Shown: piece by piece, positions 3,456-17,919 of the stretch | How the letters are laid out: each line of letters starts with the position of its first letter | Numbering within the stretch: position 1 is the first letter of the stretch | NCBI GenBank assembly: GCA_965213815.1 | Contig: OZ243917.1 | Location: 2,345,747 to 2,409,746, forward strand | Origin: Alphaproteobacteria bacterium | Lineage (GTDB): Bacteria > Pseudomonadota > Alphaproteobacteria > SP197 | Length of the DNA stretch: 64,000 nt | Direction: 5' to 3' | Position numbers and translations under genes: made by a program | Notes under the pieces: generated by a model | The model's input: only the letters and a program-made list of their open reading frames with translations | The model's database searches: none | What the model was told of the DNA's origin: nothing

Positions 3456-4347
3456 TCATGTCTCTTGAGGCTTGCGTTCGCTGACGAGATACATGGCCAC
3501 CGCCAGCAGGACCACTGCACCCCAGACCCATGATGAATGGCTTTCCTGCCACAGGATGATACCCCAGAAAACGCCAAACACCATGTTGAGGTAGCCAGCG
3601 AATGTCGCGAAGACGGGGCCGGCTGCCGAGATCAGATAGAGAAAGATGACGTAGGCGGTCACGTTGATGACAGCGATGCCACCCACGGCCATCGAGGCCG
3701 TATCCCACCCTGGCAGGATGTCATGGGCCGCTCCGCCAAGGAGCACCACGGGCAACAGGACCAGCGCACTCGAGAGCAGCATGCCCGCCACCAGCATCAT
3801 GGCATCTCCCTCTGGAGGTCTTCTGAGAGCAATGATCAGACTTTCAACGGCATAACAGGTTGGAATGAACAAGGAGATGAGGAGCCATGCTGTCAGGGAC
3901 CCTAGCTCGATCTCGAGGTCCGGGAGAACGATGAGAAGCACGGCGGCAAAGCCCAGGCCGATACCGGCAAGGCGCCCGAAGCTGTGCGGTTCAAATCCGA
4001 GAACGAGAGCGCCGAAATAGGTGAGGACGGGGGCAAGCGCGATCATGATGGCGATCATGCCGGCGCCAACCTCGGGGGAGGCGGCGAACACGATGGCTGT
4101 CGGGATCGTGGTCCCGGTGAAGCCGCACACGGTGTAGAACCACAGGTGATGCCAGGACAGATGAAATGTCTTGCCACGCACGAGTGTCAGGGCCAACAGA
4201 ACGAATCCGCCCGCCAGGGCCTGCAGGAACGTTGCATTGAGTACATCCGCACCCTCGCTGGTGGCCAGCCGCGCCAGGCTTGGCACGAGCCCCCAGGTGA
4301 TACCGATGTAGAGCAGACAGACTGTCAGCCACAACCGTCGACCCATG
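3456..4347 (-). CDS. EamA/DMT-family transporter
   Basis: The C-terminal ~297 aa of ORF 3456..5243 (from MGRRLWLTV..., ATG at 4347) form a 10-TM hydrophobic duplicated EamA-like protein. The upstream 300 aa of that ORF are Arg/Pro-rich low-complexity read-through and are not included. Confidence 0.7.
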
Positions 4348-4866
4348 GTGATTCGCTCTTCACTGTCGTTCCGTCGCCCGGAAGACAGCCGAGCTCTCGT
4401 CCCGTGGGTGGCGCAGATCACTCTACCCCGGTTTGCCGGACCGGAACACTCTGCCGAAGAGGCGCCAAGGCGCCTGGATATCGCAGGGTGGCGAGAGCTG
4501 TGAACTTCTTGGCGAGCACAAGGCGAATCCGTTCTGATTCTTGTGGATTGATTGGCTCTCCTTGCACCTGTTCGGGCACGCTGGATTACATGACTTCGAG
4601 AGATGCGGGGACTGGGAGCGCTGGGATGATCCTGTGCCTCGGACGCGGGATCATGGCAAGGTTCGGACATGCGGGAGCGCCCCCCTTTGGCGGGGGAGTG
4701 TGATCGCTTGAGCGAACCTGGCGGGTATCGGTCAACAGTAGCCTCAACGCCTCGCAAGACAACCGAATACAGGCGGCAAGCCTGCACCGGTCTGTGTTGG
4801 CGGTGTCTGGAGCATTCACCCACATTCACAATTGAACCCGCAGGCCGGGCGTGACAACAATTTCTC

Positions 4867-6396
4867 ATGAGCACGACTGGCAACCAGAGGGTGAGGCGGT
4901 CGAGACCCCGACGGTCGGCCGGTCTCCCTGCAGCTGCTCCCCGCAGGGAACGGGGCGGCCGGCTTGCGCCGCTCGATGACACGTCCCGGGACATGATCGT
5001 CGACAACGCCCTTTCGATTCTCGAACGGATCGGCATGGCATCGGCCCCGGACTGGTTCATGTCGTTGGCCATCGATGATGGCGCCAGACGGCACGGGGAG
5101 GGGCGCCTTCTCTTCCCGCGGCCACGGATTGAGAAGGCGCTGGCACGGGCGGCAAAATGCGTGGCCATACCGGGCCTTGTCGAGGAGCGGGGTATCGATG
5201 TCGGCTCTGGTCTGGTCCACACCGGCACCGGTGGTGCCGCCATCGACGTGCTTGACGCCGCGACGGAACACTATCGCGCCTCCACGCTTGACGATCTCCT
5301 CGCCATCATGCGGGTGGTCGACGCGTGCCCCAACGTGCATTACGGAATCCGCCCCCTTGTGGCGCGGGACATGACCGACGCGTTCGAACTCGACGTCAAT
5401 ACGGCCTACGCCTGCCTCGCCGGAACGGGCAAGCCCATCGGAACGTCGTTCATCCATGCCGAACACGTCGCCCCGGTGGTGTCCATGTTCGACTGCGCCC
5501 TTGGGGTCGAAGGCGGCTTTCAACGGCAACCCTTCTGCATGGCGGTCGTGGTGCATGCGGTTTCTCCCCTTCGCTACGCGGCCGATGGTGTCGACATCAT
5601 GCGGGCCGCCATTGCCGAGGGCATGCCGGTTCAGACATGTTCGGCGGGTCAGGCGGGCGCCACCAGTCCCGTCACCCTCGCCGGCGCCCTCGCCCAGGGC
5701 CTCGCCGAGACTCTCGCCGGGCTCATGGTGGTGGACATCCTCAAGCCCGGTCACCCCGCCATTCATGCCTTCATGCCCTTCATCTCCGATCTCAGGACCG
5801 GCGCCATGAGTGGCGGAGGCGGCGAATCGGCCATTGCGAATGCCGCAGCGGCACAACTCCTGCGCCATCTCCAGCTGCCTTCCACCGTTGCCGCCGGCAT
5901 GACCGACTCCAAGGAGTCGGATGTCCAGGCAGGGTACGAGAAGGCCTACACCATTGCCCTGGCGGCACACGCGGGAGCGGACATGATCAACCTTTCTGCA
6001 GGCATGCTGGGTTCCATCACGGTGGCATCACCGGAGGCCCTTGTCATCGACGACGAGATGCTGGGCGCCATCCTGCGTTCAGTGCGCGGCATCGACGTCA
6101 CACCCGACGCCATCGATCTTGAGGCCATGGAGCGCGTAGTCTGCGGCGATGGCCACTACCTTGGCGAACCGCAGACCCTGGCGCTCATGAAGAGCGAATA
6201 TATCTACCCGCGCCTGGGCGACAGGCGCGGTGTTCACGAGTGGGTCGAATCCGGTTCCGAGTCACTCTGGGAACGGGCAAGGTCCAGGGTCACCCGAATC
6301 GCCGACGCCCCACCGCCGACTCACCTTCCGGAGGCGGCGGATCAGGCCATCCGCTCACGCTTCCCCATCAGACTTCCAGGAATTGGAGACGAGTGA
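4867..6396 (+). CDS. MttB-superfamily (trimethylamine methyltransferase-like, non-pyrrolysine) methyltransferase
   Basis: 509 aa with an uninterrupted frame and no in-frame amber codon. The Arg-rich N-terminus (RVRRSRPRRS...RRERGGR) is typical of proteobacterial MttB homologues. The central ...HAVSPLRY... and TIM-barrel-like layout fit this family, whose characterised members are quaternary-amine:corrinoid/THF methyltransferases. Confidence 0.75.
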   Translation: MSTTGNQRVRRSRPRRSAGLPAAAPRRERGGRLAPLDDTSRDMIVDNALSILERIGMASAPDWFMSLAIDDGARRHGEGRLLFPRPRIEKALARAAKCVAIPGLVEERGIDVGSGLVHTGTGGAAIDVLDAATEHYRASTLDDLLAIMRVVDACPNVHYGIRPLVARDMTDAFELDVNTAYACLAGTGKPIGTSFIHAEHVAPVVSMFDCALGVEGGFQRQPFCMAVVVHAVSPLRYAADGVDIMRAAIAEGMPVQTCSAGQAGATSPVTLAGALAQGLAETLAGLMVVDILKPGHPAIHAFMPFISDLRTGAMSGGGGESAIANAAAAQLLRHLQLPSTVAAGMTDSKESDVQAGYEKAYTIALAAHAGADMINLSAGMLGSITVASPEALVIDDEMLGAILRSVRGIDVTPDAIDLEAMERVVCGDGHYLGEPQTLALMKSEYIYPRLGDRRGVHEWVESGSESLWERARSRVTRIADAPPPTHLPEAADQAIRSRFPIRLPGIGDE

Positions 6397-6834
6397 ATGC
6401 ATGTTTGCCGCAGTCTCATCATCAAGGCCCCTATCGAGACAACATGGGCCGCCGTCAGGGAATTCGACAGTGTGGGCAGGTGGAATCCGGCCGTCTTGGC
6501 CGCCCGCATGGAGACCGGAACGTCGACCGCAGTCGGGTCGGTGCGGCATCTCGACATCGCCGACGGCACCATCTTTCGCGAGACGCTCCTGGCGCACTCC
6601 GATGTCGAGCATTCCTACACCTACGACATTGTCGAGGGCCCCCTGCCCTGTACCAACTATCTTTCCACGCACCGCTTCGTGGCGATCACCGAAGGCGACT
6701 GGACACTCGGCATCTGGGAAGGAACCTTCGAGTGTGCCAGGGAGGATGAAACGAAACTGGACTCGATTGTCGGCGATCTCATCTACCGCGATGGCATGAA
6801 GGGCCTTGCCGCCTGGCTGAGGGACAACAGCTGA
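6397..6834 (+). CDS. SRPBCC (Bet v1-like / polyketide-cyclase fold) family protein
   Basis: 145 aa; ...IKAPIETTWAAVREFDSVGRWNP... is the typical SRPBCC N-terminus. Its start directly abuts the MttB-family stop. Confidence 0.6.
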   Translation: MHVCRSLIIKAPIETTWAAVREFDSVGRWNPAVLAARMETGTSTAVGSVRHLDIADGTIFRETLLAHSDVEHSYTYDIVEGPLPCTNYLSTHRFVAITEGDWTLGIWEGTFECAREDETKLDSIVGDLIYRDGMKGLAAWLRDNS

Positions 6835-7539
6835 ATGACCGACACACTGGGTTACCGTTCCATCATCGGGGTCATGACACCGGCGATGAACACCGTCGTG
6901 CAGCCGGAACTCGAATCCCTGCGCCCCCCTGGCGTGACAAACCAGATGCAACGATTCCGTCTGGGCGGCGAGAGGATTTCGGACGACCTCGACGACGAGG
7001 CCATCAGGCTCATGGACTGCCATCCGGCAGCCCTGGCGATCGGTCTGACGACGGATGCGGGGCCAGGTGGCGTGAAGAAACTTCAGGAGCGCTGTCGCGG
7101 TCTGGCATTGTCACTGGGTATTCCGGTCTTCAATGCCTCGACTGCCTGCCACGAGGCCCTGCGGCGCCTCGATGCCAGGAAGATCTCCATCGTCACACCC
7201 TTTGGTGACGATACCAATCGGGTTGTTGCCGGCAATGCGGCGGATGCCGGGTTCACCGTGGCGGCGGTCGCCGGCACGGACGCTCCGTCGCTGCCGGAAA
7301 TCTGCGAGACTTCGACAGAGGACATCGAGGCGGCCTTTCGCGAGGTCGCCGCCAGTGACTGTGATGCCATTCTCCAGGTGGGAACAGCACTACCGGTCTG
7401 CGACCTCCTGGCCTCCCTCGAGACCCTCACCGGCAAGCCGGTGGTCGCCTGCAATGCGGCGCTCTACTGGCAGACCCTGCGGCACCTCGGGATCACGGAC
7501 CCGATCGCGGGTTTTGGCCGGCTGCTGGCCGAACACTAG
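6835..7539 (+). CDS. Asp/Glu/hydantoin-racemase superfamily protein (maleate isomerase / arylmalonate decarboxylase-like)
   Basis: 234 aa; paired Cys-containing half-sites (...NASTACHEAL... and ...GTALPVCDLL...) and a length typical of this superfamily. Its start abuts the SRPBCC stop. Confidence 0.55.
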   Translation: MTDTLGYRSIIGVMTPAMNTVVQPELESLRPPGVTNQMQRFRLGGERISDDLDDEAIRLMDCHPAALAIGLTTDAGPGGVKKLQERCRGLALSLGIPVFNASTACHEALRRLDARKISIVTPFGDDTNRVVAGNAADAGFTVAAVAGTDAPSLPEICETSTEDIEAAFREVAASDCDAILQVGTALPVCDLLASLETLTGKPVVACNAALYWQTLRHLGITDPIAGFGRLLAEH

Positions 7540-7543
7540 AACG

Positions 7544-9949
7544 ATGCAGAAATCGGCCAGGGTCGTTGTCATCGGCGGCGGCGCCGTCGGTGTTTCCTGC
7601 CTGTGGCACCTGGCCCGCGCCGGTATCACGGAATGTCTGCTGATCGAGAGGGATGAACTCGCATCGGGATCCACCTGGCATGCCGCAGGGAACATTCCGA
7701 CCTATGCGACAAGCTGGCTCGGCATGCGTGCCGGCGCCTATGCACGGCGTCTCTACAGCGCGCTTGGCGAGGACGTCACCTATCACCATACCGGCGCCTT
7801 CTGGCCGGCGCACGGCGACGACCGCATGGATCACTTTCGCCACCTGACCGGTCTGGCGGTCTCCGCCGGCGTCGACTTGACGATGATCACACCTGGCGAG
7901 ATGGAGGCTCTGCACCCGCACTACACGGCCGGACCTGATGTCGTCGGCGGCATCCTCGATCCGAGTGAGGGAGACATCGATCCCTCCCAGCTCACCCAGG
8001 CGCTTGCCGGGCAAGCCCGCAAGGCCGGCGCACAAATCGCGCGCTTCACCTCCGTCACGGGCCTTGCGCCGACACCCAGCGGTGAATGGCGGGTGACGAC
8101 TGACAAGGGAGATGTGATCACGCAGGCAGTCGTCAATGCCGCCGGCTTCCATGGCGCCGCCGTGGCGCACCTTGCCGGACAGTCCATTCCCGTGGCGACC
8201 CTCAGGCACCAATACCTGGTCACGGAACCTCTCTGCGCCGTCGAGGACACCGATGATCCCTTCCCCCTGGTGCGGGATCCCGATCTCGGCTTCTACCTGA
8301 GGCGCGAAGGATCAGGAATGCTGCTGGGATCCTACGATCATCCCGGCCGGCCGGCCTTCACCGAGGGACCGCCACAGGACTTTGCCCACCAGCTCTTCGA
8401 CGAATCACCCGACGACATCGCGGAAGCCTTCGAGAAGGCGCTCGCTCATTTTCCGCTGCTTCGGGAGGCCGGAATCCGGCGTTTCGTCAACGGCCCCATC
8501 GCCTACTCTCCCGATGCCCTGCCGCTGTGCGGTCCGGCTCATGGACTGAGGAACTTCTACCATGCCTGCGGCATCCAGATCGGCATCACCCACTCCGCCG
8601 CCGCCGGCAAGGCCATTGCCGAATGGATCAGCGAAGGCGAGACCGAGTGGGACATGGCGGCCTGGGACCCCCGCCGCTACGGCGACTGGGCCACGCCAAA
8701 GATGGCAGTCGAACGCGCGGTCGAGGTCTACGGCCTGCAGTACGCCATTCCCTATCCCCGCCGCCTTCTCTCATCATCTCGACCCATGCGGACAACACCG
8801 CTCTATTGCCCCCTGGCCTCCAGGGAAGCGGTCTTCGGCGAGATCGGTGGCTGGGAACGCGCCTTCTGGTTCGATACCAACGGCACAAGGGATGAGGCGC
8901 TTTTGAGTTTTCGCGACCGGGAACCGTGGCGCGATCCGGTGCGGCGCGAATGCGAGGGAGTCCGCGACCGTGTCGGCATCATGGATCATGGCGGCTTCAC
9001 CAAGTTCGAGGTGGAGGGACCGGATGCGACGCGGTATCTCGAACGGGTGTTCTGCGGCCGGATTCCGGGGGTCCTGCGCACACGCCTTGCCTACATGCTC
9101 ACACCATCGGGCCGAATCTGGAGCGAGGCCACCGTCACGCGCCTGGAGGAGAATCGCTACCTCCTGTGTGGTCCGACCCTGGCCGAACGCCGTGATCACG
9201 ACTGGTTGCGGGAAGCCCTGCCGGCAGGGTGGCGTGTCGATCTCAGACGCGGTTCCGAGAGAGACGCCACCCTCATGCTGGCGGGGCCCCTGTCGCGCGA
9301 TCTTCTGACAACCGTGACCGATGCCGATCTCGGGAATGACGCCATGCCCTGGCTCAGCGCGGCCTGCGTCACTGTCGCAGGGTGTGCTGCAACGGCGCTG
9401 CGTGTCTCCTATGCCGGTGAACTGGGCTGGGAACTTCATCTCGCTTCCAGCGACCTCCCGACGGTCCATGACGCCCTGCGCGATTCAGGTCAGAACTTTG
9501 GCCTCACCGATTTCGGCTCTTGGGCCCTTGATTCGCTGCGTCTCGAAAAGGGTTATCATGCCTGGGGCCTCGACATCGGTACCGAGTACACCCCCTTCGA
9601 TGCCGGACTGGACCGCTTCATTGCTTTCGACAGGAAGGACTTCATCGGCAGTGGCGCCGTGATGCGCCAGCGCCAGACCGCCTCTGAATGGCGATTCGCC
9701 GGATTTGTCATAGCCGACAGCGAAGCGGATGCCCTTGCCGGTGATCCGATCCTTCTCGATTCGGTCCCGGTCGGCTATGTGACGTCGGCCGGCACCGGTT
9801 TTCGCATGATGAAGCGTCTGGCGCTGGGCTACGTCAGGGCCGACGCGCCATCGGACGCCTGGTCCATCAGGATCCTCGGAAGGGATTGCCCCGCGACGCC
9901 GGCGCCCCTGCCCTTCTACGATCCCTGCAACACCCGCCTGAAGGCCTGA
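7544..9949 (+). CDS. Dimethylglycine/sarcosine dehydrogenase-family FAD oxidoreductase fused to an aminomethyltransferase (GcvT-like) domain
   Basis: N-terminal Rossmann motif VVVIGGGAVGVSCLWHLARAG (DAO family). The C-terminal ~400 aa carry GcvT-like folate-binding domains (...GWELH..., ...RLEKGY...). The true start is taken as ATG 7544 (MQKSARVVVIGGG), not the 7133 ORF start that overlaps the previous gene. Confidence 0.8.
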   Translation: MQKSARVVVIGGGAVGVSCLWHLARAGITECLLIERDELASGSTWHAAGNIPTYATSWLGMRAGAYARRLYSALGEDVTYHHTGAFWPAHGDDRMDHFRHLTGLAVSAGVDLTMITPGEMEALHPHYTAGPDVVGGILDPSEGDIDPSQLTQALAGQARKAGAQIARFTSVTGLAPTPSGEWRVTTDKGDVITQAVVNAAGFHGAAVAHLAGQSIPVATLRHQYLVTEPLCAVEDTDDPFPLVRDPDLGFYLRREGSGMLLGSYDHPGRPAFTEGPPQDFAHQLFDESPDDIAEAFEKALAHFPLLREAGIRRFVNGPIAYSPDALPLCGPAHGLRNFYHACGIQIGITHSAAAGKAIAEWISEGETEWDMAAWDPRRYGDWATPKMAVERAVEVYGLQYAIPYPRRLLSSSRPMRTTPLYCPLASREAVFGEIGGWERAFWFDTNGTRDEALLSFRDREPWRDPVRRECEGVRDRVGIMDHGGFTKFEVEGPDATRYLERVFCGRIPGVLRTRLAYMLTPSGRIWSEATVTRLEENRYLLCGPTLAERRDHDWLREALPAGWRVDLRRGSERDATLMLAGPLSRDLLTTVTDADLGNDAMPWLSAACVTVAGCAATALRVSYAGELGWELHLASSDLPTVHDALRDSGQNFGLTDFGSWALDSLRLEKGYHAWGLDIGTEYTPFDAGLDRFIAFDRKDFIGSGAVMRQRQTASEWRFAGFVIADSEADALAGDPILLDSVPVGYVTSAGTGFRMMKRLALGYVRADAPSDAWSIRILGRDCPATPAPLPFYDPCNTRLKA

Positions 9950-9952
9950 ACG

Positions 9953-10834
9953 TCACTCCTTCGTCACACCAGGACGGATGGCCCGGTAGATGGCGGAGAT
10001 GTCGAGGTCGCCATGTCCGGATGCGGCAAAGCGTGCGAAACGCCGGGCGGCTTCGGCGCCGAAGGGGGTTGTCTGACCTGAGGCCGATGCCGCCTGCTGG
10101 GCGAGGGAGAGGTCCTTGGCCATCAGCCGTGCGGCGAACCCCGGAGCGTAGTCATGGGTGGCCGGCGCGTCGGACGCCAGTCCCGGCACCGGACAACGGT
10201 TATCCAGGATCCAGCTTTGTGCCGCGGCACCGCGGCACAGGTCGAGAAACTTCCCGGCATCGAGATCAAGGGACTCCGCCAGGGCGAATGCCTCGCACAC
10301 ACCCAGCATGGTGATGCCGCAGATCATGTTGTGACAGGCCTTGGCGGCCTGGCCCGACCCGGACTCGCCGAAATGGATGATCCGGCTTCCCATGATCTCG
10401 AGGAGAGGCCGGATCCGGGTAACATGATCCGGGGATCCGCCGACCATGAAACTCAGGGTTCCGTTCCCGGCGCCCTCGGGGCCTCCCGAGACCGGTGCAT
10501 CGACAAACCCGCATCCCGCCGCCACCGCCACCTCGGCAAGACGCCGTGTGGTCGCGACATCGATCGAGGAACAGTCGAGAAAGATGCGATCCTGCCGCTG
10601 TTCAAGGAGGGTTTCGACCACCGAGGCGACGCTGCCGCCATCCGGGAGCATGGTGATCACGGTGCCGGCCCCGCGCGCCGTCTCCTCGAGGGATGCCAGG
10701 GCCAGTCCCTCCCTCGCATCGGCATCGCTGTCCCAACCAGTGACATCGCATCCGGCCGACCCGAGGTGGCGCGCCATGGGACGGCCCATGGTTCCAAGTC
10801 CGATCACGCAGATTGTCTCAGGCATGAGCATCAA
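9953..10834 (-). CDS. NAD(P)-dependent 3-hydroxyisobutyrate dehydrogenase-family oxidoreductase
   Basis: 293 aa; N-terminal ICVIGLGTMGRPMARHL dinucleotide fold, and ...GESGSGQAAKACHNM... is the catalytic Lys region of the HIBADH/6PGDH-like family. Confidence 0.8.
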   Translation of the reverse strand: MMLMPETICVIGLGTMGRPMARHLGSAGCDVTGWDSDADAREGLALASLEETARGAGTVITMLPDGGSVASVVETLLEQRQDRIFLDCSSIDVATTRRLAEVAVAAGCGFVDAPVSGGPEGAGNGTLSFMVGGSPDHVTRIRPLLEIMGSRIIHFGESGSGQAAKACHNMICGITMLGVCEAFALAESLDLDAGKFLDLCRGAAAQSWILDNRCPVPGLASDAPATHDYAPGFAARLMAKDLSLAQQAASASGQTTPFGAEAARRFARFAASGHGDLDISAIYRAIRPGVTKE

Positions 10835-11046: not shown

Positions 11047-12474
11047 TCAGAATCGTGTGTCAACGAGAATTCCGGTCCGGCCCGGACAGGGATAGCCGGA
11101 CTTTCCCTTGTGGGGGTTGAGCCTGGATGTCGTCTTCTTTCGAGTGAAGCGCTTGCCGCAATATGTGCACTCGTAGATGTATCGAGGACCGTCTGGCCAG
11201 GCGACTGACCTGGATCGGCGAGGTGCCGTATGCACTCGCCTGCGCGACAGACTGAGAGATTTCGCCCGGCTCGCGGTCAGTGGAATGACGGGCGGGCCCT
11301 GCGGGGTCAGTTCCACGGCGAAGCGGGGAATGAAGCTCTGCCGGGTCGCTCGAGCGCCCTGCATGCGGTCGATGCGGTAGCTCCGATGCTCACCGTCCGA
11401 GGCTCTTGTGGCATGCAGCACGATATTGTCGTCTCGGGTGCGGCGTAGCGAGTACGGCTCGATCCGCCGGACAGAACCCTGATACTCGAGGTCTACGCAC
11501 AAACGGTTTGCAGCCGCGAAACGGATGATCTCCAGATACGCCTGTACCCTGCCCGGAACCGGAAGGCGCAGGGTACGCTCCCTGATCAGGGTTTCGCCCG
11601 CAGCCAGCCGGTACGTGGCCGGCTCGGCCGGCATCACGCCTGTCTGGAGCCAGGCGAAGAACTCGGGCAGTGCTTCCCAGAAACTCTCGACAGGCGGCAA
11701 CTCCTGGAGCTGGTGGCCCAGCATCGGTTGCCAGGAGCCCTCGATATCGCCTCTGTGTGTCTCCAGCCCCCCGGGCGTCGGAACAGCAAGGGCGCGGTGT
11801 TCGCATTTCTGCTGGAGGACATCAAGCAGCACGGCGGCACGGGGCCGCGCTTCGGCATTGCGATAGAGATTGATCACATCGTACAGATCGCGTGGGCGCG
11901 CGCGGTCGCCGAGGGCGCGCACCTTTTCAGCGAAAGCCTCCTCATAGGCGTAGCACAGAACGGCGATCCCCTCCTCAGGCGCATCGCCGTAGTCGTGGAA
12001 GATGACACGCTCGACCGGCGGCAGGACGAGAAGCTCGTCAGGCGTCAGATCGAGCTTGACGCGCGGGAGACCACCGGAGCGAGGAGCGATCGGCCCCCGG
12101 TAGCTCAACTTGCCTTGACAGGAGACCGTGCCGCGAGGGTTTTCGAAAACGTCGAACTCCTGCAGCTCTTCTGGAAGCTCGATGCCAGTCTGTTCGTAGA
12201 CCCATTCTCCGACGTCACGGAACATGCCCGCTAGGAAGCCGCGGTCGATTTGAGAAGGATCGGTGAGCGTAAAGTCGAGGTCTTCGGAGAAACGATAGGT
12301 CTCGAAATAGCATTTCTTGAGGCAGGTCCCGCCCTTGAATATCCAGCTCTTGGCAAGAGTTCTCTGCCCATAGATCCCGGCAAGAACCCAGCCCAGCACG
12401 TAGTCCTTCTCCACGACATGAGGCAGCAGACCAAAGGTCTCCGCCGTATCGAGGATCTCGCGTCGGTCGATCAT
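11047..12474 (-). CDS. AbiEii/AbiGii-family nucleotidyltransferase toxin (DUF1814) with long C-terminal extension (WYL-like segment + C2HC-type zinc ribbon)
   Basis: N-terminal ~200 aa have all AbiEii hallmarks: ...HVVEKDYVLGWVL..., the hG[GS] motif in IFKGGTCLKKCY, the acidic SEDLDF motif, and EKVRALGDRARPRDLYDV. The protein is 475 aa against the usual ~300. The extra C-terminal part contains ...RRIEPYSL...HATRASDGEHRSYRIDRM..., which is WYL-domain-like, and ends ...YECTYCGKRFTRKKTTSRLNPHKGKSGYPCPG (Cys-x2-Cys...His...Cys, basic-rich). Confidence 0.8.
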   Translation of the reverse strand: MIDRREILDTAETFGLLPHVVEKDYVLGWVLAGIYGQRTLAKSWIFKGGTCLKKCYFETYRFSEDLDFTLTDPSQIDRGFLAGMFRDVGEWVYEQTGIELPEELQEFDVFENPRGTVSCQGKLSYRGPIAPRSGGLPRVKLDLTPDELLVLPPVERVIFHDYGDAPEEGIAVLCYAYEEAFAEKVRALGDRARPRDLYDVINLYRNAEARPRAAVLLDVLQQKCEHRALAVPTPGGLETHRGDIEGSWQPMLGHQLQELPPVESFWEALPEFFAWLQTGVMPAEPATYRLAAGETLIRERTLRLPVPGRVQAYLEIIRFAAANRLCVDLEYQGSVRRIEPYSLRRTRDDNIVLHATRASDGEHRSYRIDRMQGARATRQSFIPRFAVELTPQGPPVIPLTASRAKSLSLSRRRVHTAPRRSRSVAWPDGPRYIYECTYCGKRFTRKKTTSRLNPHKGKSGYPCPGRTGILVDTRF

Positions 12475-13310
12475 GCAGGCACTGCCGGGATCCAGCTCTC
12501 CGGAACAAACAGGCGCCAGCGAGTCACCAGCCGCCGGCAGGGAAGTGCGGGATCGAGCCTGGCATTGCCCTTCGTCAGCCGCTCCCTGCAGGCGTCGAGA
12601 AGAGCGTTGCTGCTGGACTTGCGTTCCGCCAGGAAGCCCAGCCGCTTGAAAATGGCACCGTTGCCGATCCGATGGGCGTAGGCGACCAGCATTTCATCGT
12701 CCCGGTCCCTGCGACCGAAATAGGATGCGAGACAGTCGTCGACATGCTGGATGCCGGCCCCCAACGCAGGGTCGTCCAGCATGTCTATGATGGTGCGGTG
12801 TACGTCCGACACGGCGATCCTGGTCTTGCCACGCCATACATTCCTGGTCCCAAACATCATGTCCGCCCGAACGTGCCGCAGGGTGAATCTGGTGCCATGA
12901 CGCATCTGGTTTCCCGCACGCACCGGCCGCTCCGTCAGTACGACAATGTCGCGAAAAATCTGTTCCGTCAGGTCCCAGTGTTCCGCCGCGGTTCGACCGC
13001 CGATGTAGGCGGGATCGTACAGTGTCGGCACCAGCACCCAGGGGTCGTCGAGTACTTGCTCGCTGAACAGGGAGTCGAGACTGACCGGTGCATAGGCACC
13101 AGAGCCCACGCGGCGTAACCAGCCCTGTCGGCTCCACCGGGACAGCAGTTTGGCGGCAGCGGTACGGCTGACGTCGAGAGCTCGCTCGGCATCGGCGATC
13201 CGGACGATGTCGCCTGCTTCCCGGATCACCGCGGCCAGTCGGCGACGTCCTTCAGGTATGGAGGCCTCTTTGCTCATGTAGGGGTATAGTCTCGCTGCGA
13301 TTATTCGCAT
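12471..13310 (-). CDS. AbiEi-family antitoxin / transcriptional regulator (type IV TA, AbiEi_4-like)
   Basis: The N-terminal winged-HTH signature ...AGDIVRIADAERALDVSRTAAAKLLSRWSRQGWLRRVGSGAY... is the AbiEi_4 domain. Its stop overlaps the AbiEii ATG by 4 bp (ATGA). The exact start is uncertain (MRIIA at 13310 or MSKEAS at 13277). Confidence 0.8.
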   Translation of the reverse strand: MRIIAARLYPYMSKEASIPEGRRRLAAVIREAGDIVRIADAERALDVSRTAAAKLLSRWSRQGWLRRVGSGAYAPVSLDSLFSEQVLDDPWVLVPTLYDPAYIGGRTAAEHWDLTEQIFRDIVVLTERPVRAGNQMRHGTRFTLRHVRADMMFGTRNVWRGKTRIAVSDVHRTIIDMLDDPALGAGIQHVDDCLASYFGRRDRDDEMLVAYAHRIGNGAIFKRLGFLAERKSSSNALLDACRERLTKGNARLDPALPCRRLVTRWRLFVPESWIPAVPA

Positions 13311-14600: not shown

Positions 14601-16955
14601 TCAGTGTTCGGGCAGGAGTTCCGGGAGGAAGGTCGTGATGTCGGGGATGAACCACATCAGCGCCAGTGCGACGATCTGGATGATGACGAAGGGCACCACG
14701 CCCCTGTAGATCTGGCCCGTGGTGATGCCCGGCGGCGCCACGCCGCGCAGGTAGAAGAGCGCAAATCCGAAGGGCGGCGTCAGGAACGATGTCTGCAGGT
14801 TGACGGCGATCATGATCGTCACCCACTTGGGATCGAGTGTGCCGCCGTAGATCACCGGTCCGACAATGGGAATGACGATGTAGATGATTTCCAGGAAATC
14901 AAGGACAAACCCCAGGACAAAGAGAACGGCCATGACCACCAGGAAGACGACCATCTCGTCATCGAAGGAGCGCAGGAACTCCTGGATGTGCTCTTCGCCA
15001 CCATAGGAAATGACCACGAGGTTGAGCATCTGTGAACCGATCAGGATGGCGAACACCATCGCCGTCACCTTCGCCGTGTCGCGCACCACGGACCTTAGAA
15101 TCCCCTCTCGGTAGAGAATGACACAGGAATAGATCAGCCCGCCGAAGGCAACGTGGTAGGCAACGATGGAGACTATGAAGGCCACCCAGTTCTCGAAGCC
15201 GACCACCTCAATCGATGTTCTGAGATCGAAGTTGATGCCCACGAGCAGGAAGACCACAACGGCCCACGCCGACATGATGATGATCCTGCCCTTGCGGCGC
15301 TCCTTGCGTTCGGAGAGCCGCCGGTAGGCCGACAGCATGAGGGCGCCCGATGCTCCGAGACCGGCGGCGGCGGTCGGGCTCGTCACACCGCCGAGAATCG
15401 AGCCGAGCACGGCCACAATGAGAACGAGAGGCGGAAACACGACGCGCAGGATCTCGACCTCGGCGAGGCGGGGCAGGGCATGACGCAGCCCATGGAGCAC
15501 GGCAACGATCGGCAGTGCCAGGATGAGCCAGGCGGTTCCGGTGCTCATCACCGGCGTCACGAGCCAGGCATCGGCCGCCAGCGTGGCGGCAATCCCGCCG
15601 ACACCAATGAGAAGGGGCCGCCGGGAGGCGGACGGCGCGACACCCCAGGAGATCGACATGACGAGGCCCAGGAAGACGAGGCCGACCAGCAGTTTCTCGG
15701 AAACCGGAGGCAGGAAGTCGATCGCTTCGGCCTCCAGAGCATCGAGTTCCTCGTCGGTCGGCGCAACAAACTCGGCCGCCGCCCCGATTTCCGCCATGGC
15801 AAGCGACCGATCCCACTTTTCCTGCCCGTGGAGCTCGATCATGGAGTCCTTGCAGTCGTCGGGAACATTGGTGCGCAGTTCCGGCGATTCGGGCCGCTCG
15901 ACGAGAGCCAGCCGATCGACGGTCTGCGGACCGGCAAGGCCGGCCGTCACCATGCCTCCTGCCAGGGCGATCACCAGACCCGGGACGGCGAGGAACCAGA
16001 AGAGGCGATGGTTGAGCGTGGCGCCCTCGTCCGTCAGGCCGGCGGAGGTGACGCGAACGGGAGGCGCCTTGGAGGGACGCACCAGGGCATAGCAAAACAC
16101 ATAGGCCGCATAGATGAACGCCAGCAGCAGTCCGGGCACGATCGCCGCCTTGAAGAGTGTGCCCACGGAGACCACGGCCGCCTCGCCAAGATAGGTGAGA
16201 GCATCGCGGCACCCGGCCGTGATCGCGCGTTCTTCCTGGGCCGTCGAGTAGAGATCGCCGGCAAGGGTCCCGAGGAGAACGATCACGATCGATGGCGGGA
16301 TGATCTGCCCCAGGGTGCCGGATGCCGAAATCACGCCGGTCGCCAGCTCAGGCGAATACTGGTTGCGCAGCATGGTCGGCAGGGACAGCAGCCCCATGGT
16401 GACGACGGTGGCGCCGACAATGCCGGTCGAGGCAGCGAGAAAGGCGCCCACCACCACCACCGAGACTGCCAACCCGCCCGGCAGGGCGCCGAAGACACGG
16501 GCCATGGAGGTGAGCAGGTCCTGGGCAATCCGCGAACGCTCCAGGGAAATGCCCATGAGGATGAACATGGCGACGGCCAGAAGCAGTTCGATGGAGGGGC
16601 CGGCGAGCACCCGCTCGTTCATCCGGTTGACGATGAAGGTCAGGATGCGGAAGAAGGCGCCATCCACGCCATTCTCGAAGACGGGAACTGTCAGCGTCGG
16701 CAGTTCGGGATACCTGAAAAGGGTGATGGCGTGTTCCTTGACGCCCGAGCCGACGAGTGCCGCATAGTCGTCGCTGCGATTGTCGATGATCTCCTTGACC
16801 AGGAGGCCGGATTCACTCAGGCCGGCGATGATGGCAAAGGCGACAAGGGCGGATCCGCCGATGGCGAAGGCCACGGGATAGCCGGACAGTATTCCGGCAA
16901 ACAGGCACACCAGGGTAATGAGGAGCCCGACCTCGACACCGTCAAATCCGAACAT
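14601..16955 (-). CDS. TRAP transporter large permease (DctM family) with large hydrophilic insertions
   Basis: DctM-like blocks are present (...GTLGQIIPPSIVIVLLG..., ...VTSPTAAAGLGASGALMLSAYRRLS...). At 784 aa it is far longer than the usual DctM of about 430 aa, with about 150 aa of acidic soluble loop (...ERPESPELRTNVPDDCKDSMIELHGQEKWDRS...EELDALEAEAIDF...). Confidence 0.7.
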   Translation of the reverse strand: MFGFDGVEVGLLITLVCLFAGILSGYPVAFAIGGSALVAFAIIAGLSESGLLVKEIIDNRSDDYAALVGSGVKEHAITLFRYPELPTLTVPVFENGVDGAFFRILTFIVNRMNERVLAGPSIELLLAVAMFILMGISLERSRIAQDLLTSMARVFGALPGGLAVSVVVVGAFLAASTGIVGATVVTMGLLSLPTMLRNQYSPELATGVISASGTLGQIIPPSIVIVLLGTLAGDLYSTAQEERAITAGCRDALTYLGEAAVVSVGTLFKAAIVPGLLLAFIYAAYVFCYALVRPSKAPPVRVTSAGLTDEGATLNHRLFWFLAVPGLVIALAGGMVTAGLAGPQTVDRLALVERPESPELRTNVPDDCKDSMIELHGQEKWDRSLAMAEIGAAAEFVAPTDEELDALEAEAIDFLPPVSEKLLVGLVFLGLVMSISWGVAPSASRRPLLIGVGGIAATLAADAWLVTPVMSTGTAWLILALPIVAVLHGLRHALPRLAEVEILRVVFPPLVLIVAVLGSILGGVTSPTAAAGLGASGALMLSAYRRLSERKERRKGRIIIMSAWAVVVFLLVGINFDLRTSIEVVGFENWVAFIVSIVAYHVAFGGLIYSCVILYREGILRSVVRDTAKVTAMVFAILIGSQMLNLVVISYGGEEHIQEFLRSFDDEMVVFLVVMAVLFVLGFVLDFLEIIYIVIPIVGPVIYGGTLDPKWVTIMIAVNLQTSFLTPPFGFALFYLRGVAPPGITTGQIYRGVVPFVIIQIVALALMWFIPDITTFLPELLPEH

Positions 16956-17863
16956 CAGGCGCCGGCCTCCGTGCTCCGGGCCGGCTTCTCGGGCACGATG
17001 TCGGGGACGGTATCAAGATCCTTGTAGCGGTTGGCTGACGCCTCCCCTTCCCTGAACTCCAGCAGGCTGCGGTAGAAGTGCCCCAGCCCCTGGAGGAACA
17101 TCAGACCGGCAAACGACACCAGCAGGACCTTGAAGAGAAAGTAGGCGTCGAAGCCGTTTGGCGAGAATCCGATGGTCTCGACATTCCACCGCAGCAGCTG
17201 CGCCTTGCGCTCGAGGAGTTCGAGGGTGTCAAGCGCCGAGACCTTCGGCGTGATGAGATGACGCCACAGGAAGAACCAGCCGAAGAGCCACACGACGCCA
17301 CAGAACGGCATCACGAAAAAGACCGAACCGAACATGTCCAGCAGCCGCTTCGTGCGGAAGGACACGGAAGCATAGACGAGATCGACCCGCACATGACCGC
17401 CCTGGACGAACGTGTAGGCCGCGCACAGGGCCACGATCGTCGCGTTGTAGAGCTTGAGCTCCTCGCTGAACCAGCTGAGATCCCTGGTAAACACGACACC
17501 GAACGGACCCACGGTGATCTCCGAAACGAGGAAGATGCGCTGCAGGGCGATGATCATGATCTGCTGGATGACCATGATGAGAACCGCCCACGCGGCAATG
17601 CGGCCGACGAGATTGGAGAGCCCCTCGATGGCGCGCACCACGAGCCACAGGAATCCAGGTTTCAGGAGTCCGATGACCAGGATGATGAGGGCCAGGTCGA
17701 TGATGACGAACAGGAACTCGAGGGAGGCGCCGAAGTAGACGATCCTGACCAGTCCCGCACTCTCGGAGGGGTCAGGCCACGCCCCGGGCTCGATCAACAG
17801 ATGAAAGAGATTGGCCAGCCCGTCGAGAAGATGGCTCAGGGGCCAGAGAATGACGTCCGGCAT
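16955..17863 (-). CDS. TRAP transporter small permease (DctQ-like), enlarged
   Basis: 302 aa multi-TM protein immediately upstream of the DctM-like gene with a 1-bp overlap. Hydrophobic segments are interspersed with charged loops. It is assigned by position and hydropathy. Confidence 0.55.
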   Translation of the reverse strand: MPDVILWPLSHLLDGLANLFHLLIEPGAWPDPSESAGLVRIVYFGASLEFLFVIIDLALIILVIGLLKPGFLWLVVRAIEGLSNLVGRIAAWAVLIMVIQQIMIIALQRIFLVSEITVGPFGVVFTRDLSWFSEELKLYNATIVALCAAYTFVQGGHVRVDLVYASVSFRTKRLLDMFGSVFFVMPFCGVVWLFGWFFLWRHLITPKVSALDTLELLERKAQLLRWNVETIGFSPNGFDAYFLFKVLLVSFAGLMFLQGLGHFYRSLLEFREGEASANRYKDLDTVPDIVPEKPARSTEAGA

Positions 17864-17919
17864 GTATTGCGCACAAGGGCCGGCGCCCGCATCTCATCGC
17901 GATGCGGGCGCCGTGGAGA

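What the first reader, a model, noticed from the sequence alone, without database searches (positions are those of the whole stretch)
4867..9949. Tightly packed MttB-family / SRPBCC / racemase-family / DMGDH-GcvT operon: candidate aerobic quaternary-amine demethylation route without a corrinoid partner
Four same-strand genes are separated by 0, 0 and 4 bp. They are a non-pyrrolysine MttB-superfamily methyltransferase, a small SRPBCC ligand-binding-fold protein, an Asp/Glu/hydantoin-racemase-superfamily protein, and a dimethylglycine/sarcosine-dehydrogenase-family flavoenzyme with a THF-binding GcvT domain. Characterised MttB homologues demethylate glycine betaine, proline betaine, carnitine or gamma-butyrobetaine onto a corrinoid protein. 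No cobalamin-binding protein gene is visible here. The neighbour instead is a THF-linked N-methyl amino acid dehydrogenase, which would take the product one demethylation further. The SRPBCC and racemase-like genes have no assigned role in betaine catabolism, so the substrate and the methyl acceptor of this operon are open.
Basis: partly seen in the sequence, partly recalled or inferred. Interest (0 to 1): 0.65.

Follow-up and report, generated by a model that had tools for sequence, protein, structure and literature searches.

The report
Conserved betaine-type demethylation operon, substrate unknown
This is a real, widely conserved bacterial operon that most likely strips methyl groups from an unidentified trimethylammonium nutrient; its missing vitamin-B12 carrier gene is normal for aerobic marine bacteria, but two tightly conserved genes inside it have no known role.

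Summary
Four same-strand genes lie at 4867-9949 with gaps of 0, 0 and 4 bp: a non-pyrrolysine MttB, an SRPBCC protein, a maleate-isomerase/arylmalonate-decarboxylase-fold protein and a DMGDH-like flavoenzyme.

The MttB + DMGDH-like pair is adjacent in all 75 of 80 related genomes where the contig reaches far enough. SRPBCC and the isomerase-fold gene sit between them in 56.

"No corrinoid partner" is not special. Aerobic marine bacteria use an unlinked shared corrinoid protein, MtgC (Mausz 2025), and two cultured carrier species encode it.

This MttB is probably not a glycine-betaine enzyme. All four betaine-binding residues of MtgB are replaced. It is not the orthologue of Ruegeria pomeroyi MtgB1 or MtgB2. 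Its usual neighbours are a LysR regulator, an omega-aminotransferase and a 3-hydroxyisobutyrate-dehydrogenase-like gene.

The "racemase" lacks both catalytic cysteines. With SRPBCC, it never co-occurs with an aldehyde dehydrogenase / PLP enzyme / glutamate-cyclase-like trio found in a derived clade.

Best reading: corrinoid-dependent then flavin/THF-dependent demethylation of a non-glycine betaine, with an uncharacterised accessory pair. This is a new variant of a known kind. The substrate is unresolved.

The parts
3456..4400 (-). EamA/DMT-family membrane transporter, divergently transcribed from the operon. It is a lineage-specific neighbour and a possible substrate or product carrier.
   Evidence: Pfam EamA, E 7e-17. 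It is conserved next to the cluster in the 9 closest relatives at 79-90% identity and absent from other lineages. The start near 4400 is approximate.
4401..4866 (.). Divergent intergenic region, the presumed promoter and regulatory region.
   Evidence: No Rfam family, including no cobalamin riboswitch, matches here. The consensus promoter scan is uninformative.
4867..6396 (+). Non-pyrrolysine MttB-superfamily methyltransferase. It is the proposed substrate:corrinoid methyltransferase (MT1) for a trimethylammonium compound.
   Evidence: PF06253, E 8e-92. Its best solved relative is D. hafniense MtgB (9YCE/2QNE), E 5e-42. The MtgB glycine-betaine contacts Y97/R312/H348/F356 align to T121 (pairwise; G in the MAFFT alignment)/T340/L376/I384; the last three are fixed in 69 of 72 clade members. 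More than 3400 homologues were found, the top ones 60-87% identical.
5899..5998 (+). Stretch of the MttB coding sequence that matches Rfam PYLIS_3. The pyrrolysine UAG position is AUG (Met345) here.
   Evidence: 52.2 bits against a gathering score of 38. The alignment puts model bases 1-3 (UAG) on AUG. I read this as coding-sequence homology, not a recoding signal.
6397..6834 (+). Small SRPBCC (Bet v 1-like) ligand-binding-fold protein of unknown role.
   Evidence: PF10604, E 8e-20. Its closest solved relatives are uncharacterised Bacillus proteins 3F08/3CNW, E 7e-17. 51 columns are invariant among 15 orthologues. It always occurs with the next gene.
6835..7539 (+). Maleate-isomerase / arylmalonate-decarboxylase-fold protein (Asp/Glu-racemase superfamily) that lacks both catalytic cysteines. 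Its role is unknown.
   Evidence: PF17645, E 8e-14. TIGR02990 EutA scores 72 bits against a cutoff of 318. AF2 pLDDT is 90. The Foldseek top hit is 2XED maleate isomerase, TM 0.85. L71 and G183 occupy the Cys76/Cys194 (maleate isomerase) and G74/C188 (AMDase) positions, F123 replaces AMDase Tyr126, and T72-T73 match AMDase T75-S76. All are invariant in 20 orthologues.
7544..9949 (+). DMGDH/sarcosine-dehydrogenase-family flavoenzyme with a THF-binding GcvT domain. It is the proposed oxidative N-demethylase of the tertiary amine left by MttB.
   Evidence: DAO + FAO_M + GCV_T + GCV_T_C. It aligns full-length to rat and human DMGDH (4PAB/5L46), E 6e-152, with the STWHAAG histidine motif conserved. 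It is adjacent to this MttB clade in all 75 informative loci.
9953..10834 (-). 3-hydroxyisobutyrate-dehydrogenase-like NAD(P) oxidoreductase, convergent and 3 bp from the DMGDH-like stop. It is probably part of the same pathway.
   Evidence: NAD_binding_2 + NAD_binding_11. TIGR01692 HIBADH scores 279.7 bits against a cutoff of 291.6. An orthologue lies within 10 kb in 33 of 80 loci, on either side of the cluster.

Best explanation
The cluster encodes the first steps of catabolism of a trimethylammonium compound that is probably not glycine betaine. It is most likely a betaine whose backbone is an omega-amino acid.

Step 1 (inferred from the family): the MttB-type TIM-barrel enzyme transfers one methyl group to Co(I) of a corrinoid protein. 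That protein is encoded elsewhere and shared with other methyltransferases (MtgC-type). An MtgD-type enzyme passes the methyl group to THF.

Step 2 (inferred from architecture and adjacency): the DMGDH-like flavoenzyme oxidises an N-methyl group of the resulting tertiary amine and captures the one-carbon unit on THF in its GcvT domain.

Later steps are seen only in related genomes. They are a further DMGDH paralogue in some genomes, a LysR regulator, an omega-amino-acid:pyruvate-type aminotransferase that turns the free amine into an aldehyde, and a HIBADH-like or aldehyde dehydrogenase that disposes of it.

The SRPBCC protein and the Cys-less isomerase-fold protein form a fixed pair. I propose that they act on the carboxylate backbone, through binding, isomerisation or decarboxylation-type chemistry. 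They are not a thiol racemase and not part of methyl transfer. In a derived clade they are replaced by an aldehyde dehydrogenase, a PLP enzyme and a glutamate-cyclase-like protein.
For: Synteny: MttB and the DMGDH-like gene are adjacent in 75 of 75 informative loci.

Shared neighbours in full-flank loci outside the window lineage (variant A / variant B): LysR 23/29 and 11/16; the aminotransferase 14/29 and 8/16; HIBADH-like 10/29 and 7/16. The best solved relatives of the aminotransferase are omega-transaminases, including the P. jessenii 6-aminohexanoate enzyme and GABA aminotransferases.

Not glycine-betaine type: three of the four MtgB contacts, including the acid-anchoring Arg312, are replaced by residues fixed across the clade, and the fourth (Y97) aligns to a Thr or Gly (PMC13080624). 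A search seeded with the R. lacuscaerulensis clade member lists nothing attributable to R. pomeroyi down to 63% identity. MtgB1 and MtgB2 are 88% and 85% identical between these species. R. lacuscaerulensis and Roseovarius albus, both carrier species, also have MtgB1 and MtgB2.

Unlinked corrinoid partner: the genetics of R. pomeroyi; MtgC at 92% identity in R. lacuscaerulensis and Roseovarius albus CECT 7450; a corrinoid protein plus a URO-D-family MT2 gene in L042; and a BtuF-type ABC transporter next to the cluster in L079.

Accessory pair acts on the backbone: SRPBCC + isomerase-fold protein occur in 29/29 variant A and 0/16 variant B loci. The aldehyde dehydrogenase occurs in 0/29 and 15/16, the PLP enzyme in 0/29 and 11/16, and the cyclase-like protein in 0/29 and 10/16. 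Variant B is nested within variant A on the MttB tree.
Against: No experiment or paper addresses this clade. The source genome could not be searched for MtgC, MtgD or RamA.

Across 81 loci a B12-domain gene lies within 10 kb only once, so corrinoid dependence is inferred, not shown.

The acid-anchoring arginine conserved in all characterised non-Pyl members is absent. Other proteobacterial paralogues lack it too, so substrate class cannot be read from it.

The DMGDH-like enzyme resembles genuine DMGDH closely (E 6e-152), which fits glycine betaine.

The window itself has no aminotransferase, LysR regulator or aldehyde dehydrogenase.

The role proposed for the accessory pair rests only on a presence/absence pattern.
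Confidence: 0.5

Rival explanations
1. It is simply the aerobic glycine-betaine route. MttB would be an MtgB that makes dimethylglycine, and the neighbour would be the true dimethylglycine dehydrogenase.
For: The flavoenzyme aligns full-length with mammalian DMGDH, E 6e-152. Mausz et al. report mtgB near later glycine-betaine demethylation genes in several marine lineages. Some variant B loci carry a second DMGDH paralogue, which gives three demethylases for three methyl groups.
Against: All four glycine-betaine contacts of MtgB are replaced. The clade is not orthologous to the glycine-betaine-induced MtgB1 and MtgB2 of R. pomeroyi, and carriers have those as well. An omega-aminotransferase, a HIBADH-like enzyme, an aldehyde dehydrogenase and lactam-opening enzymes are not needed to degrade glycine betaine.
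Confidence: 0.15
2. This MttB clade would work without a corrinoid protein and pass the methyl group directly to THF, perhaps with help from the neighbouring proteins.
For: There is no B12-domain gene in the window and only one within 10 kb in 81 loci. The substrate pocket differs from all characterised members. Two conserved proteins of unknown role sit inside the operon.
Against: All characterised MttB-family enzymes methylate a corrinoid (PMC13080624, PMC12155760). Unlinked mtgC is essential in R. pomeroyi. Two cultured carrier species encode MtgC. Variant B lacks the two extra proteins and keeps the MttB + DMGDH-like pair, so they cannot be an obligatory methyl acceptor. Demethylating a quaternary ammonium ion needs a very strong nucleophile (established chemistry).
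Confidence: 0.08
3. The middle pair provides stereochemical conversion. The isomerase-fold protein would be a cofactor-independent epimerase for a chiral betaine or its N-methylated product, such as an amino-acid betaine or a carnitine-like compound. PLP enzymes cannot act on such substrates.
For: It has the Asp/Glu-racemase superfamily fold. The carboxylate-binding threonines are retained. Variant B carries PLP enzymes and a D-glutamate-cyclase-like protein instead, which could act after full demethylation. From memory, betaine epimerases are known in the hydroxyproline-betaine pathway.
Against: Both acid/base cysteine positions are Leu and Gly, and the tyrosine is Phe, all invariant. No alternative base was identified. 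The omega-transaminase context argues for an achiral or omega-amino backbone.
Confidence: 0.15

Closest known systems
MtgB-MtgC-MtgD glycine betaine:THF methyltransferase of aerobic marine bacteria (Ruegeria pomeroyi; Mausz et al. 2025, PMC12478193)
   Same: It has a PF06253 substrate methyltransferase in an aerobic alphaproteobacterial setting. The corrinoid and pterin modules are encoded elsewhere. Downstream DMGDH-type demethylation feeds THF-linked C1 oxidation.
   Different: This MttB is a different paralogue, not MtgB1 or MtgB2. It is always fused into an operon with a DMGDH-like gene, whereas MtgB1 and MtgB2 are solitary genes. It carries two extra genes and different pocket residues.
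Characterised non-pyrrolysine MttB members of anaerobes: MtgB (glycine betaine), MtpB (proline betaine), MtcB (carnitine), MtyB (gamma-butyrobetaine), MthB (phosphocholine)
   Same: Same superfamily and TIM-barrel fold, with about 30% identity to MtgB. The pyrrolysine position holds an ordinary residue.
   Different: The arginine that anchors the acidic group in all of these (R312) is Thr340 here, and the aromatic pair is absent. There is no adjacent corrinoid or MT2 gene. The partner is an oxidative demethylase, which anaerobes lack.
Dimethylglycine dehydrogenase / oxidase family (rat and human DMGDH 4PAB/5L46; Arthrobacter DMGO 1PJ5). From memory, also the gamma-N-methylaminobutyrate oxidase of Arthrobacter nicotinovorans.
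   Same: Identical four-domain architecture, the histidine of the covalent-FAD motif, and a THF-binding GcvT domain.
   Different: The substrate is unknown. The genomic partners point to a longer or different backbone than glycine.
Maleate cis-trans isomerase, arylmalonate decarboxylase and EutA branch of the Asp/Glu-racemase superfamily
   Same: Same fold (TM 0.85 to 2XED). The N-terminal P-x-x-N loop and the Thr-Thr pair at the AMDase dioxyanion-hole position are present.
   Different: No cysteine at either catalytic position, and Phe replaces the hole tyrosine. It scores far below the EutA and AMDase family cutoffs.
Omega-amino-acid / lactam catabolic clusters (for example Pseudomonas jessenii caprolactam: ATP-dependent lactamase, 6-aminohexanoate aminotransferase, aldehyde dehydrogenase)
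   Same: Related loci combine a close homologue of that aminotransferase (6G4B, E 9e-116) with an aldehyde dehydrogenase and, in some loci, HyuA/B- or PxpABC-type lactam-opening enzymes.
   Different: Here these genes accompany N-demethylases. None of them is in the window itself.

Membership tests
MttB superfamily (PF06253) | Full-length match to the family profile above the curated cutoff | tested here: met
   308 bits against a cutoff of 25, covering residues 10-496.
Pyrrolysine-containing trimethylamine methyltransferase MttB (TIGR02369) | In-frame UAG (pyrrolysine) at the catalytic position, and the equivalog score | tested here: not met
   The ORF is uninterrupted. The UAG of the PYLIS_3 model aligns to AUG (Met345). 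TIGR02369 scores 266 bits against a cutoff of 525.
MtgB-type glycine betaine methyltransferase (D. hafniense type) | Glycine-betaine contacts Y97, F356 (cation-pi) and R312, H348 (carboxylate) | tested here: not met
   They align to T121 (pairwise; G in the MAFFT alignment), I384, T340 and L376. The last three are fixed in 69 of 72 clade members; the other 3 have Ala at 340.
MtgB1 / MtgB2 of Ruegeria pomeroyi (aerobic glycine betaine enzymes) | Orthology to SPO2108 or SPO2134 | tested here: not met
   This test is indirect. R. lacuscaerulensis has MtgB1 and MtgB2 at 88% and 85% identity to R. pomeroyi. A search with its member of this clade lists nothing attributable to R. pomeroyi (by name or by a contig the size of its replicons) down to 63% identity. 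The R. pomeroyi sequences themselves were not available for alignment.
Corrinoid-dependent three-component methyltransferase system | A cognate corrinoid protein and an MT2 enzyme in the same genome | not testable with these tools
   None is in the window. The source genome was not retrievable. Indirect support: MtgC in two cultured carrier species and a local corrinoid + MT2 pair in L042.
Dimethylglycine/sarcosine dehydrogenase family | DAO + FAO_M + GCV_T + GCV_T_C architecture with the covalent-FAD histidine motif | tested here: met
   All four domains are present. STWHAAG aligns with the same motif in rat DMGDH over the full length, E 6e-152. That this histidine is the flavinylation site is from memory.
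Dimethylglycine dehydrogenase proper (substrate = dimethylglycine) | Activity on dimethylglycine | not testable with these tools
   No NCBIfam equivalog is reached. The context argues against it but does not exclude it.
Asp/Glu/hydantoin racemases and maleate isomerase | Two catalytic cysteines facing the substrate | tested here: not met
   Leu71 and Gly183 occupy those positions and are invariant in 20 orthologues.
Arylmalonate decarboxylase | A single catalytic Cys188 plus the dioxyanion hole (Thr75, Ser76, Tyr126, Gly189) | tested here: not met
   Gly183 is at the Cys188 position and Phe123 at Tyr126. Only Thr72-Thr73 are retained. NF052327 scores 49 bits against a cutoff of 225.
Ectoine utilisation protein EutA (TIGR02990) | Equivalog score | tested here: not met
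   72 bits against a cutoff of 318, matching the C-terminal half only.
SRPBCC / Polyketide_cyc2 | Family profile match | tested here: met
   72 bits against a cutoff of 27.4. The fold could not be confirmed because the single-sequence model had pLDDT 36.
3-hydroxyisobutyrate dehydrogenase (TIGR01692) | Equivalog score | tested here: not met
   279.7 bits against a cutoff of 291.6. This is a near miss and by far the best-scoring family.

The most novel reading that the evidence does not exclude
The SRPBCC protein and the cysteine-less isomerase-fold protein form a new two-protein catalytic or substrate-handling module that is specific to N-methylated amino-acid catabolism. It could be a cofactor-independent decarboxylase, lyase or epimerase using a non-thiol mechanism. 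The operon would then define a previously unknown aerobic route for an abundant marine or host-derived betaine, such as gamma-butyrobetaine, beta-alanine betaine, a carnitine relative or trimethyllysine. The stronger form is that this MttB clade needs no dedicated corrinoid protein.
Probability: 0.2. Interest if true: 0.75.

Novelty: new variant of a known kind. Interest (0 to 1): 0.5.

Why it matters
Aerobic marine and symbiotic bacteria carry many MttB paralogues. So far only glycine betaine has been assigned to any of them.

This clade is widespread in Alpha- and Gammaproteobacteria and Acidimicrobiia, including symbionts of marine invertebrates. It is always paired with an oxidative demethylase. 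It also occurs in cultured strains such as Ruegeria lacuscaerulensis, R. halocynthiae and Roseovarius albus CECT 7450, so its substrate can be found by direct experiment.

Identifying the substrate would add a route to marine methylated-amine and vitamin-B12 budgets. The invariant, cysteine-less isomerase-fold protein and its SRPBCC partner could reveal new chemistry in a well-studied enzyme superfamily.

Tried and rejected
1. Retrieving the source genome to look for MtgC, MtgD and RamA failed. Exact-protein look-ups of P0001, the SRPBCC protein and the 801-aa flavoenzyme found no recorded gene. Cluster look-up showed only an unnamed 3,853,775-bp NCBI/ENA contig.

2. A cobalamin riboswitch or other RNA element upstream was sought and none found. 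The only Rfam hit is the PYLIS_3 coding-homology match.

Only L042 was positive, and Pfam confirmed it.

4. The SRPBCC structure could not be obtained. No fold search was made.

5. The AFDB50 fold search for the isomerase-fold protein was not possible because the library is unavailable.

6. Literature searches for this gene combination, beta-alanine betaine catabolism and DUF4392/MJ0158 found nothing specific.

7. I considered reading the substrate from the missing Arg312. I rejected this because other proteobacterial paralogues, in R. pomeroyi pDSS-3, S. meliloti pSymB and A. scapharcae, also lack it.

8. Specific substrate guesses were considered: choline-O-sulfate from the sulfatase in 7 loci, DGTA/DGTS head groups, glutamate betaine and trimethyllysine. 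None is excluded and none is supported well enough to name.

9. Solved relatives of the glutamate-cyclase-like and MJ0158-like proteins are themselves uncharacterised.

Full report
**Observation.** Four + strand ORFs are present as described.
- The MttB homologue lies at 4867-6396 (509 aa).
- The SRPBCC protein lies at 6397-6834 (145 aa).
- An Asp/Glu-racemase-superfamily protein lies at 6835-7539 (234 aa).
- A DMGDH-like flavoenzyme lies at 7544-9949 (801 aa).

The longest ORF of the fourth gene starts at 7133. ATG 7544 is the real start, because the FAD domain begins a few codons later and the exact 801-aa product is in the public collection. The gaps are 0, 0 and 4 bp.

Pfam gives MTTB (E 8e-92), Polyketide_cyc2 (8e-20), Amdase (8e-14) and DAO + FAO_M + GCV_T + GCV_T_C. 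The MttB ORF has no internal stop. Rfam's PYLIS_3 model matches 5899-5998 and aligns its UAG to AUG (Met345). This confirms a non-pyrrolysine member, and I read the RNA hit as coding homology.

No B12-binding domain is encoded in the 64 kb. The rest of the window holds housekeeping genes (parC, era, spoT/relA, clpA), transporters, an AbiE toxin-antitoxin pair and a giant Calx-beta protein.

**Conservation.** A scan of one genome per species returned 80 loci whose MttB is 56-87% identical to the window's.
- The DMGDH-like gene directly follows MttB, or the middle pair, in every locus where the contig extends far enough: 75 of 80. L008 carries it with frameshifts.
- In 56 loci ("variant A") the SRPBCC and isomerase-fold genes lie between them, always together and in the same order.
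- In 24 loci ("variant B") they are absent.
- On a neighbour-joining tree of MttB, variant B is mostly one derived clade nested within variant A. All members are well separated from a 45%-identical paralogue.
- Carriers include Alpha- and Gammaproteobacteria and Acidimicrobiia, many from metagenome-assembled genomes, among them a Poriferihabitaceae genome and the Olavius algarvensis Gamma 3 endosymbiont.
- Cultured carriers include Ruegeria lacuscaerulensis, R. haliotis, R. halocynthiae, Roseovarius albus, R. conchicola, Shimia abyssi and Alisedimentitalea scapharcae.

**The wider gene set.** I clustered all ORFs of the loci and then ran targeted tblastn. The counts below are for loci with full 10-kb flanks outside the window's own lineage, given as variant A / variant B.

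| Neighbour | Variant A | Variant B |
|---|---|---|
| LysR regulator | 23/29 | 11/16 |
| Class-III aminotransferase | 14/29 | 8/16 |
| HIBADH-like dehydrogenase | 10/29 | 7/16 |
| SRPBCC + isomerase-fold pair | 29/29 | 0/16 |
| BADH-like aldehyde dehydrogenase | 0/29 | 15/16 |
| MJ0158-like PLP enzyme | 0/29 | 11/16 |
| D-glutamate-cyclase-like protein (PF14336) | 0/29 | 10/16 |

- The first three rows are shared by both variants.
- The aminotransferase passes the NF004767 subfamily cutoff. Its best solved relatives are omega-transaminases, including the P. jessenii 6-aminohexanoate enzyme and GABA aminotransferases.
- The window's HIBADH-like copy scores 279.7 bits against the TIGR01692 cutoff of 291.6.
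- The last four rows are strictly alternative: the pair and the trio never co-occur. Variant B often also has a TRAP transporter.
- Lactam-opening enzymes of unrelated types recur sporadically: PxpABC in 5 loci and a fused HyuA/B oxoprolinase in 3. A sulfatase follows the flavoenzyme in 7 loci.

A paralogous module on the R. pomeroyi megaplasmid follows the same logic with a different aldehyde-handling enzyme. Its order is LysR | MttB (43% identity) - class-III aminotransferase - two DMGDH-like genes - an Xsc-like TPP enzyme.

The general pattern is therefore a trimethylammonium compound taken through up to three demethylations to a primary amine. The amine is transaminated to an aldehyde, which is then oxidised, reduced or cleaved.

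**The corrinoid question.** Mausz et al. (PMC12478193) showed the following for aerobic R. pomeroyi.
- PF06253 enzymes (MtgB1 SPO2108, MtgB2 SPO2134) work with an unlinked corrinoid protein MtgC (SPO2160) and a pterin methyltransferase MtgD (SPO1863). These also serve methionine synthesis.
- Genomes carry up to seven PF06253 paralogues of unknown substrate.

Absence of a local corrinoid gene is therefore expected. Their Dataset S02 lists MtgC at 92% identity in Roseovarius albus CECT 7450, the very strain of locus L066, and in R. lacuscaerulensis.

Among 81 loci only L042 has a B12-binding protein within 10 kb, there next to a URO-D-family MT2 gene. L079 has a BtuF/FecCD-type ABC transporter directly after the cluster.

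I could not retrieve the source genome. Corrinoid dependence of this particular protein remains an inference from the family.

**Is it a glycine-betaine enzyme?** Probably not, for four reasons.
- The best solved relative is D. hafniense MtgB (E 5e-42, about 30% identity). Picking et al. (PMC13080624) showed that Y97 and F356 hold the ammonium group and R312 and H348 hold the carboxylate. They also state that R312 is conserved in all characterised non-pyrrolysine members. Here these positions are T121 (G in the MAFFT alignment), I384, T340 and L376. The last three are fixed in 69 of 72 clade members.
- A search seeded with the R. lacuscaerulensis member of the clade lists homologues down to 63% identity from several Ruegeria and Roseovarius species. 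None is attributable to R. pomeroyi, by name or by a contig the size of its replicons. MtgB1 and MtgB2 are 88% and 85% identical between these two species. The clade is therefore a different paralogue, and R. lacuscaerulensis and Roseovarius albus already have MtgB1 and MtgB2.
- MtgB1 and MtgB2 are solitary genes, whereas this clade is always in an operon with a flavoenzyme.
- The aminotransferase and dehydrogenases would be superfluous for glycine betaine.

There is a caveat. Other proteobacterial paralogues also lack R312, so the pocket differences mark the proteobacterial branch rather than identify a substrate. The flavoenzyme's close resemblance to mammalian DMGDH (E 6e-152) also keeps glycine betaine alive as a rival, at about 0.15.

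**The "racemase".** Orthologues are exactly 233-236 aa long and 64-91% identical across phyla, with about 100 invariant positions.
- The AF2 model is confident (pLDDT 90). It superposes on maleate isomerase (2XED, TM 0.85) and arylmalonate decarboxylase. True racemases come far behind.
- Profile alignment to these structures places Leu71 at the first catalytic cysteine position (maleate isomerase C76, AMDase G74).
- Gly183 sits at the second position (maleate isomerase C194, AMDase C188).
- Phe123 sits at the AMDase dioxyanion-hole tyrosine. Thr72-Thr73 match AMDase Thr75-Ser76.

The protein therefore keeps part of the carboxylate-binding apparatus but lacks every known acid/base or nucleophile of the superfamily. 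It scores far below the EutA and AMDase cutoffs. It is either an enzyme with a new mechanism or a binding or scaffold subunit.

The SRPBCC partner resembles only uncharacterised Bacillus proteins (3F08/3CNW) and, distantly, PYR/PYL receptors. Its structure could not be modelled.

**Proposed mechanism.**
- Inferred from the family: MttB transfers one methyl group from a trimethylammonium substrate to Co(I) of an unlinked corrinoid protein, and on to THF.
- Inferred from architecture and invariant adjacency: the DMGDH-like enzyme removes the next methyl group or groups oxidatively, producing methylene-THF.
- Inferred from related genomes only: an omega-transaminase and HIBADH or aldehyde dehydrogenase steps follow, under LysR control.
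- Inferred from the mutually exclusive pattern: the SRPBCC/isomerase-fold pair acts on the carboxylate backbone, not on methyl transfer. Variant B does without it and has backbone-processing enzymes instead.

The omega-transaminase relatives and the recurrent lactam-opening enzymes point most towards a gamma- or delta-amino-acid or glutamate-like backbone. Gamma-butyrobetaine-type compounds are the leading candidates, followed by beta-alanine betaine, carnitine relatives and trimethyllysine. This is a ranking of guesses, not a result.

**Verdict.** The "no corrinoid partner" angle is explained by published work, and the "racemase" is not a canonical racemase.

What remains new is a widespread, uncharacterised MttB specificity group. 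It is hard-wired to a DMGDH-like enzyme and, in most lineages, to an invariant SRPBCC plus cysteine-less isomerase-fold pair. I rate it a new variant of a known kind, with interest 0.5.

Noticed in passing
window 5899-5998 (+): Rfam PYLIS_3 (pyrrolysine insertion sequence of mttB) matches above its gathering score (52.2 against 38 bits) inside this non-pyrrolysine gene, with the model's UAG aligned to AUG. It looks like coding-sequence homology, which suggests the Rfam model largely captures conserved codons rather than an RNA structure.
   Followed up: partly
window 11047-13310 (-): An AbiEii nucleotidyltransferase toxin (with a WYL domain) and an AbiEi antitoxin form a pair with a 4-bp overlap, inserted between the HIBADH-like gene and an arginyl/leucyl-tRNA protein transferase gene.
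   Followed up: no
window 45040-63999 (-): A giant ORF of at least 6319 codons runs off the window end. It has at least 15 Calx-beta repeats, and its C-terminal 1000 residues match no Pfam family. It is probably a giant adhesin-like surface protein.
   Followed up: partly
window 14601-19014 (-): A TRAP transporter (a DctM-type large permease of 784 aa, a DctQ-like protein and a DctP binding protein) lies 4.6 kb downstream of the cluster. Variant B loci have a TRAP system inside the cluster, so it may be related, but this was not tested.
   Followed up: no
window 4867-4992 (+): The public gene call for this MttB (P0001, 467 aa) starts 42 codons downstream of ATG 4867. The longer N-terminus is conserved in orthologues (87%-identical proteins cover 100% of it), so the database start is probably too short.
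   Followed up: partly
L082 6893-17189 (Ruegeria pomeroyi DSS-3 megaplasmid): A paralogous module reads LysR | MttB (43% identity) - GSA-aminomutase-like class-III aminotransferase - two DMGDH-like genes - a TPP enzyme whose best family is sulfoacetaldehyde acetyltransferase (401 bits, below cutoff). It may degrade a trimethylammonium sulfonate or a similar compound. The same module sits next to the main cluster in several gammaproteobacterial loci (L020, L024, L025, L027, L030).
   Followed up: partly
L034, L040, L046, L062, L074, L077, L081 and other variant B loci: An operon recurs with TRAP transporter - HIBADH-like - aldehyde dehydrogenase - MJ0158-like PLP enzyme - D-glutamate-cyclase-like (PF14336) - class-V aminotransferase. 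None of the last three has a characterised bacterial homologue. This unit is itself an unexplained conserved module.
   Followed up: partly
L042 27-1603 (+): In an Acidimicrobiales genome a URO-D-family methyltransferase and a B12-binding_2 + B12-binding corrinoid protein lie 8.4 kb upstream of the MttB + DMGDH-like pair. This is the only local corrinoid gene among 81 loci.
   Followed up: yes
L079 15129-17822 (+): A Peripla_BP_2 (BtuF/FhuD-type) binding protein, a FecCD permease and an ATPase lie directly after the DMGDH-like gene. This could be cobalamin uptake or merely siderophore uptake.
   Followed up: no
L008 11922-12620: This relative's copy of the isomerase-fold gene has an in-frame stop and frameshifts, and the following flavoenzyme gene is fragmented. 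The cause is either long-read assembly errors or decay of the operon in that lineage.
   Followed up: partly
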